Shown piece by piece: positions 40,970 through 41,338 of a stretch of DNA of 64,000 nucleotides. The translations under genes were made by a program, and so were the position numbers. Source of the DNA: a virus; the UHGV virus genome UHGV-0037395. One strand, given 5' to 3'. Below the pieces are notes generated by a model that was given only the letters and a program-made list of their open reading frames with translations, did not search any database and was not told where the DNA came from. Positions within the stretch are counted from its first letter, which is position 1. The number at the start of each line of letters is the position of its first letter.

Positions 40970-41338
40970 ATGAAAGCATATCAAAACCTTAAATCTGGCG
41001 TAATTAATATTGTTCATAATAATCAGATCATTCAGCTATATTCCGATAATGGTGAACTTAAACAGAAAGTTCTAGTTGAAGATCTAGAAGGTATCACACC
41101 TCACTTTGACCCTGAGGCCTTTCGCATTGTAGATGTGGAAGTGGTTCCTCAAATCGAAGGTGGTCAGCACCTAAATGTCAATGTATTAAGCCGTGATCAG
41201 CTTTTGGATGCGCAGAAACATCCTGAAAAATATCCTCAGTTGACCATTCGTGTCTCTGGCTATGCTGTACGTTTTAATGCACTGACGCGTGAACAACAGA
41301 ACGACGTTATTAGTCGTACATTTACTCAGGCGATGTAA
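40970..41338 (+). CDS. grcA: Autonomous glycyl-radical cofactor (GrcA/YfiD homolog)
   Basis: C-terminal half [16 protein letters not shown]...[36 protein letters not shown] is near-identical in pattern to E. coli GrcA including the RVSGY glycyl-radical motif. Confidence 0.85.

What the first reader, a model, noticed from the sequence alone, without database searches (positions are those of the whole stretch)
40970..41338. Phage-encoded GrcA (YfiD) glycyl-radical spare part alongside class III RNR NrdD
The C-terminal 60 residues match the GrcA/PFL glycyl-radical domain almost motif-for-motif ([10 protein letters not shown]). NrdD at 13093-14967 carries its own RVCGY radical site, which oxygen truncates. 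A GrcA-like protein might restore or protect a glycyl-radical enzyme (host PFL or the phage NrdD) during infection under fluctuating oxygen. No nrdG activase is visible in this window.
Basis: partly seen in the sequence, partly recalled or inferred. Interest (0 to 1): 0.6.

Follow-up and report, generated by a model that had tools for sequence, protein, structure and literature searches.

The report
Phage copy of GrcA spare part
This T5-like phage carries a small gene for a GrcA/YfiD-type "spare part" that most likely repairs the host's oxygen-damaged pyruvate formate-lyase; the T4 version was shown to do this in 2001 and the T5 version is already annotated, so the finding is real but ordinary.

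Summary
Window 40970-41338 (+) is a 122-aa ORF whose last 60 residues form a PFL-type glycyl-radical domain. They are 48/60 identical to E. coli GrcA and PflB and 51/60 to TdcE, and contain an exact RVSGYAV. PDB hits: GrcA E 3e-29, PFL E 6e-27.

The window is a T5-like phage (Tequintavirus). The gene is the ortholog of T5.056, is present in about 430 T5-like records, and is a full-length homolog (51% identity) of T4 Vs.6/Y06I. That protein was shown in 2001 to be activated by PFL activase and to restore oxygen-cleaved PFL. The gene is under strong purifying selection (dN/dS 0.05-0.10).

The suggestion that it repairs the phage NrdD is not supported. It shows no similarity to the NrdD C-terminus, and its activase-recognition peptide is the PFL one.

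No nrdG or pflA homolog exists in the window or in the whole genome of the closest relative. Both phage glycyl-radical proteins must therefore depend on host activases.

A more plausible link to NrdD is metabolic: PFL makes formate, which is the reductant of E. coli/T4-type class III RNR. This link is inferred, not tested.

Verdict: an already known kind, and the T5-like ortholog is biochemically untested. Low interest.

The parts
40970..41338 (+). GrcA/YfiD-like autonomous glycyl-radical cofactor gene (122 aa plus stop), the ortholog of T5.056 and a full-length homolog of T4 vs.6 (Y06I)
   Evidence: ORF. Pfam Gly_radical. PHROG 1209 matched over the full length at E 5e-47. PDB GrcA and PFL hits. 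The protein is 100% identical to that of phage Es2, and 1585 phage records hold a homolog. T5.056 is the same length and in the same position. dN/dS is 0.05-0.10 among T5-likes.
40959..40964 (+). Shine-Dalgarno sequence GGGGAG, 5 nt upstream of the ATG
   Evidence: Read directly from the sequence.
40970..41155 (+). N-terminal half (residues 1-62). It is divergent and phage-type. By analogy with YfiD residues 1-60 it is the part that promotes binding to cleaved PFL and radical installation
   Evidence: hhalign against the N-terminal halves of T4-like and jumbo-phage proteins gives Prob 82%, E 1e-5. Those in turn match the bacterial GrcA N-terminal halves at Prob 95.5%, E 1.5e-8. The direct comparison with bacterial GrcA is not significant. 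dN/dS is about 0.1. AF2 predicts beta-strands at pLDDT about 75. The role of the YfiD N-terminus is taken from PMC8683613.
41156..41335 (+). C-terminal glycyl-radical domain (residues 63-122): a strand, a Gly-loop hairpin and a C-terminal helix, corresponding to PFL 700-759
   Evidence: Identity is 48/60 to GrcA and PflB and 51/60 to TdcE. There are zero non-synonymous changes among four T5-like genes at dS up to 0.57. The model has helix 75-83, hairpin 92-95/98-101 and helix 107-117. The best Foldseek hit is 6owr YfiD at E 1.5e-5.
41249..41269 (+). RVSGYAV (residues 94-100), the exact PFL-activase substrate heptapeptide. Gly97 (41258-41260) is the predicted radical site
   Evidence: The sequence is and the alignment. 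RVSGYAV is a competent PFL-AE substrate mimic (PMC10665898).
13093..14967 (-). Class III ribonucleotide reductase NrdD (624 aa, no ATP-cone, RVCGY Gly site). This is context only. It is not a demonstrated partner of the GrcA-like protein, though it may be a consumer of PFL-derived formate
   Evidence: Translation. It is 54% identical to E. coli NrdD from residue 113 onward, with the equivalents of C175, M382 and C384 conserved. It shows no similarity to the GrcA-like protein.

Best explanation
[quoted passage not shown] It most likely works as follows.

1. The phage expresses the 14-kDa protein from its early tRNA-gene region.
2. When oxygen cleaves the host's active pyruvate formate-lyase (PflB, possibly also TdcE) at Gly734, the phage protein binds the cleaved enzyme. 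Its C-terminal domain takes the place of PFL residues ~696-759.
3. The host PFL activase PflA, a radical-SAM enzyme that the phage does not encode, puts a radical on Gly97 of the phage protein.
4. That radical is passed to Cys419 of PflB, and pyruvate + CoA -> acetyl-CoA + formate resumes.

Shown here: the sequence identity of the domain, the exact activase peptide, full-length homology to the experimentally validated T4 protein, purifying selection, and the absence of any phage activase.

Inferred: that the T5-like ortholog behaves like T4 Y06I and E. coli YfiD.

The benefit to the phage is also inferred. One part is continued fermentative ATP and acetyl-CoA supply. The other is continued formate supply, because formate is the reductant of the E. 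coli/T4-type (NrdD1) class III RNR that this phage also encodes. T5 destroys host DNA and so depends on de novo dNTP synthesis.
For: The domain matches GrcA (E 2.8e-29) and PFL 698-759 (E 6e-27). Identity over the last 60 residues is 48/60, 48/60 and 51/60 to GrcA, PflB and TdcE. The heptapeptide RVSGYAV, which PFL-AE accepts as a substrate, is exact (PMC10665898). The protein aligns over its full length with T4 Vs.6 at 51% identity, E 9e-38. T4 Vs.6 is annotated as GrcA in NC_000866. It is the Y06I protein shown to be activated by PFL-AE and to restore O2-cleaved PFL (Wagner 2001, as described in PMC8683613). The N-terminal half is linked to the bacterial GrcA N-terminus through the T4-like and jumbo-phage proteins. 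dN/dS is 0.05-0.10, with no amino-acid change in the C-terminal half among four T5-likes. The model's best PDB match is YfiD. The gene is kept in about 430 T5-like genomes and about 1100 T4-like and jumbo-phage genomes. No PflA or NrdG homolog, and no radical-SAM CxxxCxxC protein of suitable size, is found in the window or in the whole Es2 genome. For the formate link, the window NrdD is 54% identical to the formate-dependent E. coli enzyme and conserves the aligned C175, M382 and C384 positions. NrdD1 enzymes (E. coli, T4) use formate, and PFL is the fermentative formate source (PMC4493059; PMC4390871). [quoted passage not shown]
Against: No experiment exists for any T5-like ortholog, and no paper mentions T5.056. 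The protein scores 118.9 bits on the NCBIfam GrcA equivalog model, below the 170-bit cutoff, and that model aligns only residues 54-122. The N-terminal half, which in YfiD matters for binding cleaved PFL, has no directly detectable similarity to bacterial GrcA. Partner recognition could therefore differ. The C-terminal domain is slightly closer to TdcE than to PflB, so the preferred host partner is not settled. The formate/NrdD rationale is circumstantial. Genus-level counts of NrdD-carrying phages exceed those of GrcA-like-carrying phages, but per-genome co-occurrence was not tested.
Confidence: 0.8

Rival explanations
1. The protein is a spare part for the phage's own class III RNR. After oxygen truncates NrdD at its RVCGY glycine, the GrcA-like domain would supply a new glycyl radical to NrdD.
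For: Both genes are in one genome, and NrdD is oxygen-sensitive at its Gly site. PMC8683613 speculates that spare parts may exist for other glycyl-radical enzymes. Phage genera that carry the GrcA-like gene also commonly carry NrdD.
Against: BLASTP of the two window proteins gives E 3.5, and the Gly sites are not aligned. The NrdD Gly site is preceded by a CxxC...CxxC zinc ribbon and reads RRVCGYLGNPGARPFN, which is unlike GrcA. Foldseek returns YfiD and PFL-like enzymes but no RNR. The Gly loop is the PflA substrate peptide, and NrdD is served by a different activase, NrdG. The domain is 80-85% identical to host formate lyases, which is what a part that must slot into PFL would need. The two genes are 26 kb apart on opposite strands. 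The T4 homolog was shown to act on PFL. The 2026 review lists spare parts only for formate lyases.
Confidence: 0.04
2. The protein is not a repair part but a manipulator of host metabolism. It would be a decoy that titrates PflA or occupies PFL, so as to shut down or redirect host fermentation.
For: The N-terminal half is strongly diverged from bacterial GrcA. The phage encodes no activase, so the protein necessarily competes for host PflA.
Against: The T4 homolog restores PFL activity rather than inhibiting it. Every residue of the Gly loop and the C-terminal helix that is invariant across bacterial GrcA is kept. The C-terminal half has had zero amino-acid changes among T5-likes, as expected for a working catalytic insert. 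YfiD is not activated unless a PFL variant is present (PMC8683613), which argues against a free PflA sink.
Confidence: 0.06
3. The ORF is a decaying fragment of a captured host pflB/tdcE/grcA 3' end with no function.
For: Many GenBank records call it 'pyruvate formate-lyase' or '2-ketobutyrate formate-lyase'. It covers only the last ~8% of a PFL.
Against: The full-length 122-aa ORF is conserved in about 430 T5-like genomes, with dN/dS 0.05-0.10 and dS up to 0.59. It has its own RBS and start codon. Its N-terminal half is homologous to those of other phage GrcA-like proteins. Third-codon positions are near saturation against the host genes while 80-85% of residues are kept.
Confidence: 0.02

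Closest known systems
Bacteriophage T4 Vs.6 (Y06I), autonomous glycyl radical cofactor
   Same: It is a phage-encoded protein of the same size (120 vs 122 aa), beginning MKAYQ. The full-length alignment is 51% identical at E 9e-38. It has the same [10 protein letters not shown] site. It was shown experimentally to be activated by PFL-AE and to rescue O2-cleaved PFL (Wagner 2001, via PMC8683613). Both proteins fall below the NCBIfam GrcA cutoff, at 151 and 119 bits against 170.
   Different: T4 also encodes its own NrdG, whereas the T5-like phage encodes no activase at all. The last 185 nt of T4 vs.6 are 98% identical in DNA to E. coli grcA. That half is therefore a very recent copy of the host gene. 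The T5-like gene is only 74-76% identical in DNA to any host gene, with near-saturated synonymous sites, which marks an old independent phage lineage. The N-terminal halves are only about 28% identical.
E. coli GrcA (YfiD), PDB 6OWR
   Same: The two-part architecture is the same: an N-terminal half of about 60 residues plus a 60-residue glycyl-radical domain. The domain is 48/60 identical, and Gly97 corresponds to Gly102. It is the best structural match to the model.
   Different: The N-terminal half is not detectably similar by direct comparison and is linked only transitively through other phage proteins. The score is below the TIGR04365 cutoff. The protein carries the signature residues seen in most other phage homologs sampled (for example DAQ at 80-82 and DVIS at 112-115) rather than the bacterial ones. 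AF2 predicts a beta-rich N-terminus, whereas YfiD 1-60 is disordered in NMR (PMC8683613).
C-terminal glycyl-radical domain of host formate lyases PflB and TdcE
   Same: Identity is 48/60 with PflB 701-760 (encoded-protein numbering; 700-759 in the conventional mature numbering) and 51/60 with TdcE 705-764. The residues after the Gly ([19 protein letters not shown]) match TdcE almost exactly.
   Different: It is a free-standing 14-kDa protein without the ten-stranded barrel or the catalytic Cys418/Cys419. It cannot be a formate lyase itself, so the GenBank names 'pyruvate formate-lyase' and '2-ketobutyrate formate-lyase' are misnomers.
T5.056 of bacteriophage T5 (NC_005859)
   Same: It is the ortholog: 122 aa, in the same position after the last tRNA-Met of the tRNA cluster, with six amino-acid differences, all in the N-terminal half.
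   Different: In the window a 64-aa ORF (40733-40927, PHROG 3909) lies between tRNA-Met and the gene. In T5 the gene starts 13 nt after the tRNA. T5.056 is annotated only as 'putative acetyltransferase-related protein'.

Membership tests
Glycyl-radical domain proteins (Pfam PF01228 Gly_radical) | Match to the Gly_radical model above the gathering score, with the RV(S/C)GY fingerprint in frame | tested here: met
   66.2 bits against a cutoff of 22.2, E 4.2e-18, residues 63-103. RVSGY lies at residues 94-98.
[quoted passage not shown] | A small stand-alone protein (~120-130 aa) that is essentially only a PFL-type glycyl-radical domain preceded by a ~60-residue N-terminal half | tested here: met
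   122 aa, with the domain at residues 63-122 and nothing else.
[quoted passage not shown] | Score at or above the curated cutoff of the NCBIfam equivalog model TIGR04365 (170 bits) | tested here: not met
   118.9 bits, and only residues 54-122 align. The experimentally validated T4 Vs.6 also fails at 151.1 bits, as do other phage homologs (135-137 bits: one jumbo-phage and one ~250-kb Vibrio-phage protein). E. coli GrcA scores 234. The cutoff therefore separates bacterial from phage versions rather than functional from non-functional ones.
[quoted passage not shown] | N-terminal half homologous to that of GrcA (needed in YfiD for binding cleaved PFL and for efficient radical installation) | tested here: inconclusive
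   The direct profile comparison with bacterial N-termini is not significant (13 columns, Prob 2%). Homology is supported transitively: T5-like to T4/jumbo at Prob 82%, E 1e-5, and T4/jumbo to bacterial at Prob 95.5%, E 1.5e-8. Q5 and R52 are nearly invariant across all 25 aligned sequences.
[quoted passage not shown] | Glycyl radical installed by PFL activase (PflA), and restoration of activity to O2-cleaved PFL | not testable with these tools
   Only indirect evidence is available. The PflA substrate peptide RVSGYAV is exact, identity to the PFL domain is 80%, and the T4 homolog was validated. Confirmation needs EPR and an enzyme assay.
Phage Vs.6/Y06I-like proteins (PHROG 1209) | Full-length match to the phage family profile | tested here: met
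   E 5.2e-47, residues 1-122 on profile positions 1-121 of 121. BLASTP against T4 Vs.6 is full length at E 9e-38.
Pyruvate/2-ketobutyrate formate-lyase (as named in many GenBank records) | A ~760-aa ten-stranded barrel with the catalytic Cys418-Cys419 pair | tested here: not met
   Only PFL residues 698-759 are matched. TIGR01255 scores 85.7 bits against a cutoff of 994.
   BLASTP E 3.5 with no alignment of the Gly sites. There is no RNR among the Foldseek hits.

The most novel reading that the evidence does not exclude
The most novel reading not excluded is that the T5-like protein is more than a plain copy of GrcA. Its phage-specific, beta-rich N-terminal half is strongly conserved within T5-likes, and its C-terminus is closer to TdcE. 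It could be a lineage-specific adaptor that keeps host formate lyases (PflB and/or TdcE) running specifically to feed formate to the phage's activase-less, cone-less NrdD. The two phage glycyl-radical proteins would then form a functional module for anaerobic or microaerobic dNTP synthesis that relies wholly on host activases.
Probability: 0.2. Interest if true: 0.45.

Novelty: already known. Interest (0 to 1): 0.15.

Why it matters
The gene shows that enterobacterial phages of at least three lineages (T5-like, T4-like and jumbo phages) keep a device for repairing an oxygen-damaged host fermentation enzyme. This points to infection in the microaerobic gut as a selective setting. The principle has been published since 2001 and the gene is already annotated in reference genomes.

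This analysis adds four things:
- It corrects the widespread misnaming of the gene as 'pyruvate formate-lyase', '2-ketobutyrate formate-lyase' or 'ribonucleotide reductase subunit'.
- It gives evidence against the NrdD-repair idea.
- It shows that T5-like phages carry two glycyl-radical proteins but no activase.
- It offers a testable metabolic link: PFL formate feeding the class III RNR.

Tried and rejected
- **Activase search.** I searched for a phage activase with tblastn of T4 NrdG, E. coli NrdG and E. coli PflA against the window and the whole Es2 genome, and with a CxxxCxxC scan of all six frames. Nothing was found except a small 101-aa ORF (41420-41725) with a CICSCWMC motif, which is too short and unlike a radical-SAM enzyme.
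- **N-terminal homology.** Direct profile comparison of the T5-like N-terminal half with bacterial GrcA N-termini was not significant. Only the transitive link holds.
- **Promoters and terminators.** The scan around the gene gave counts no higher than in shuffled sequence, and no site obviously serves the gene. Operon structure is inferred only from the T5 annotation: promoter P11 upstream and a terminator after T5.055.
- **Literature.** Searches for any study of the T5-like gene found nothing, including T5-like + formate-lyase, GrcA + phage + auxiliary metabolic, T5.056, and vs.6 + T4 + pyruvate formate. Two papers I wanted, Kammel & Sawers 2022 and Wei et al. 2014, are not held.
- **N-terminal fold.** The fold search gave no credible structural match for the N-terminal half.
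- **Recent capture from the host.** I considered it and rejected it for the T5-like gene. DNA identity to the host genes is 74-76%, and only 27-32 of 60 third codon positions are identical. Recent capture is true of T4 vs.6.
- **Co-occurrence with NrdD.** Per-genome co-occurrence of the GrcA-like gene with NrdD across phages could not be computed with these tools. Only genus-level counts were compared.

Full report
**1. The observation**

Window 40970-41338 (+ strand) is an intact 122-codon ORF. It starts at ATG and has a GGGGAG ribosome-binding site 5 nt upstream.

Its C-terminal half is an unmistakable PFL-type glycyl-radical domain:
- Pfam Gly_radical matches at E 4e-18.
- E. coli GrcA (PDB 6OWR) matches at E 2.8e-29, and PFL residues 698-759 match at E 6e-27.
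- [10 protein letters not shown] is in frame, and Gly97 (41258-41260) aligns with GrcA Gly102 and PflB Gly734.
- Over the last 60 residues, identity is 48/60 to E. coli GrcA, 48/60 to PflB, 51/60 to TdcE and 47/60 to T4 Vs.6.

NrdD lies at 13093-14967, although on the minus strand, and ends ...RRVCGYLG.... No nrdG is present in the window.

**2. Where the window comes from**

The region is 95-98% identical in DNA to T5-like phages (Demerecviridae, Tequintavirus), for example SB9, I14, IME178 and Es2.

The gene closes the large tRNA cluster, which holds 23 tRNA genes at 29103-40695. In the T5 reference genome the same 369-nt gene is T5.056. It lies directly after tRNA-Met and is annotated 'putative acetyltransferase-related protein ... 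IPR001150'.

GenBank names for the orthologs vary. They include pyruvate formate-lyase, 2-ketobutyrate formate-lyase, ribonucleotide reductase subunit, glycine radical domain-containing protein and autonomous glycyl radical cofactor. Only the last two are appropriate. The protein covers just the last 8% of a formate lyase and lacks the barrel and the catalytic cysteines.

**3. The family**

tblastn finds homologs in 1585 phage records:
- about 430 T5-like records at 90-100% identity;
- most of the remainder, roughly 1100 records, T4-like at around 50% identity over the full length;
- a smaller number of jumbo and Vibrio/Aeromonas phages.

The metagenome-scale protein search gives the same picture and then runs into bacterial GrcA.

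The T4 member is vs.6, that is Y06I. Knappe's group showed in 2001 that this protein is an autonomous glycyl radical cofactor that reconstitutes oxygen-fragmented PFL (cited and described in PMC8683613; also PMC12338860). The window protein aligns with T4 Vs.6 from Met1 to the C-terminus, at 51% identity and E 9e-38, and matches PHROG 1209 end to end.

The N-terminal half is the divergent part:
- NCBIfam's GrcA equivalog model aligns only residues 54-122 and scores 118.9 bits, below its 170-bit cutoff.
- The validated T4 protein also falls below that cutoff at 151 bits, as do other phage proteins (135-137 bits: one jumbo-phage and one ~250-kb Vibrio-phage protein). E. coli GrcA scores 234. The cutoff therefore separates bacterial from phage versions, not functional from non-functional ones.
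- Profile-profile comparison of N-terminal halves alone links T5-like to T4/jumbo proteins (Prob 82%, E 1e-5). It links those to bacterial GrcA (Prob 95.5%, E 1.5e-8). The direct T5-like to bacterial comparison is not significant.
- Gln5 and Arg52 are nearly invariant across all groups.

I conclude that the protein is a full-length but diverged member of the GrcA lineage. It is not a PFL tail fused to something unrelated.

**4. Is it functional?**

Among four T5-like genes (window, Es2, phiP4, T5), dN/dS is 0.05-0.10. The C-terminal half has no amino-acid change at dS up to 0.57, and the N-terminal half has dN/dS of about 0.1.

Against the host genes pflB, tdcE and grcA, the C-terminal 180 nt are only 71-76% identical. 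Just 27-32 of 60 third codon positions are the same, yet 80-85% of residues are kept. This is an old phage gene held by selection, not a recent pickup or a decaying fragment.

An AlphaFold2 model has mean pLDDT 70.8. It shows a beta-rich N-terminal half and then helix 75-83, a hairpin 92-95/98-101 with Gly97 at its tip, and helix 107-117. Its best PDB match is the YfiD NMR structure (E 1.5e-5). The next matches are the Gly-loop regions of PFL-like enzymes at 0.7-0.8 Å rmsd. No class III RNR appears in the list.

**5. How it most likely works**

The mechanism established for YfiD and Y06I has three steps. Oxygen cleaves radical-bearing PFL at Gly734. The spare part then binds the cleaved enzyme, with its N-terminal half promoting binding. 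Finally PFL activase installs a radical on the spare part's glycine only once it is in the complex, and this restores catalysis (PMC8683613; PMC12338860).

The window protein has everything that mechanism needs at the sequence level:
- It has the exact heptapeptide RVSGYAV that PFL activase accepts as a substrate mimic (PMC10665898).
- It keeps the strand, loop and helix that replace PFL 696-759.
- It has a conserved N-terminal half.

The phage encodes no radical-SAM activase. tblastn with T4 NrdG, E. coli NrdG and E. coli PflA finds nothing in the window or in the complete 107.6-kb genome of Es2. The Es2 GrcA-like protein is 100% identical to the window's. The same queries find T4 nrdG at E 1e-108, 2e-46 and 1e-11 respectively. 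The protein must therefore be activated by the host PflA. That step, and rescue of host PflB (or TdcE), are inferred by homology and have not been shown for this ortholog.

**6. The NrdD idea**

- The two proteins share nothing beyond the R-V-x-G-Y pentapeptide (BLASTP E 3.5, with the Gly sites not aligned).
- The NrdD glycine follows a zinc-ribbon (CGKCG...CPICG) and sits in RRVCGYLGNPGARPFNPGKQ. This stretch is nearly identical to the host NrdD, as expected if the host NrdG activates it.
- The GrcA-like domain is instead built to match host formate lyases.
- A 2026 review states that formate lyases are the only glycyl-radical enzymes with known spare parts (PMC13450708).

A more sensible connection between the two phage genes is metabolic:
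- The window NrdD is 54% identical to E. coli NrdD and conserves the positions aligned with E. coli C175, M382 and C384.
- It therefore belongs with the E. coli/T4 NrdD1 enzymes, which use formate as reductant (PMC4493059).
- PFL is the fermentative source of formate (PMC4390871).
- T5 degrades host DNA and nucleotides early in infection (abstract), so it needs de novo dNTP synthesis.

Keeping PFL alive through oxygen pulses would sustain both ATP/acetyl-CoA and the RNR reductant. This is a hypothesis. I could compare only genus-level counts of phages carrying each gene. NrdD counts exceed GrcA-like counts in the genera where both counts were listed, which is compatible with the hypothesis but not a test of it.

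**7. Comparison with what is known, and novelty**

The closest known systems are T4 Vs.6/Y06I (validated), E. coli GrcA/YfiD (validated, structure solved) and T5.056 (annotated ortholog).

The window protein differs from them in three respects:
- It has a more diverged N-terminal half.
- Its C-terminus is slightly more TdcE-like.
- It sits in a genome with NrdD but no activase at all, whereas T4 carries nrdG.

These are variations within a known kind. The gene, its family and its mechanism are already in the literature and the databases. What remains untested is the biochemistry of the T5-like ortholog and the benefit to the phage.

**8. Verdict**

The novelty is low. Interest is 0.15.

Noticed in passing
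L003:11558-11920 (T4 vs.6, NC_000866 63557-63919) compared with L011:301-684 (E. coli grcA): The last 185 nt of T4 vs.6 are 98% identical in DNA to E. coli grcA (182/185; 59 of 60 third codon positions). The identity starts exactly at the beginning of the structured glycyl-radical domain and ends at the stop codon, while the 5' half is phage-type. T4 Vs.6 therefore looks like a very recent chimera or gene conversion with the host gene, unlike the T5-like gene.
   Followed up: partly
window 41338-41499 (+) and 41420-41725 (+): Two ORFs in different frames lie directly downstream of the GrcA-like gene and overlap by 80 nt. One is 53 aa (PHROG 31464) and the other 101 aa (PHROG 4499, the homolog of T5.055). 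Each matches its own phage protein family, and GenBank records annotate them inconsistently. The 101-aa ORF holds the only CxxxCxxC motif in the window (TPCICSCWMCGNPRKYY). Its function is unknown, and it is too small to be a radical-SAM activase.
   Followed up: partly
window 40733-40927 (+): A 64-aa ORF (PHROG 3909, unknown function) sits between the last tRNA-Met (40620-40695) and the GrcA-like gene. In T5 the gene starts 13 nt after that tRNA, so this ORF is an insertion relative to T5.
   Followed up: no
window 40970-41338 compared with L005:38187-38555 (phage Es2): The two genes encode identical proteins, but the differences are unevenly placed. There are no nucleotide differences in the first 186 nt and 12 synonymous differences in the last 183 nt. 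This suggests a recombination breakpoint inside the gene between closely related T5-like phages.
   Followed up: no
window 13093-14967 (-): The phage NrdD lacks the N-terminal ATP-cone region. It is 624 aa against 712 aa, and the alignment with E. coli NrdD starts at residue 113 of the host enzyme. The phage has no nrdG anywhere in the closest complete genome, so this class III RNR must be activated by the host NrdG. Its Gly-site segment is nearly identical to the host's.
   Followed up: partly
window 29103-40695 (+): A cluster of 23 tRNA genes is interspersed with many small ORFs of unknown function, all on the + strand. This is typical of the T5 early region, which in T5 also holds several stable RNAs of unknown function.
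   Followed up: no
L002:8820-10467 (phage SP15), syntenic with the region next to the window NrdD: Two genes annotated as Sir2-family NAD-dependent deacetylases lie a few genes from nrdD in the closest relatives, and one is also annotated in Es2. They were not examined further.
   Followed up: no
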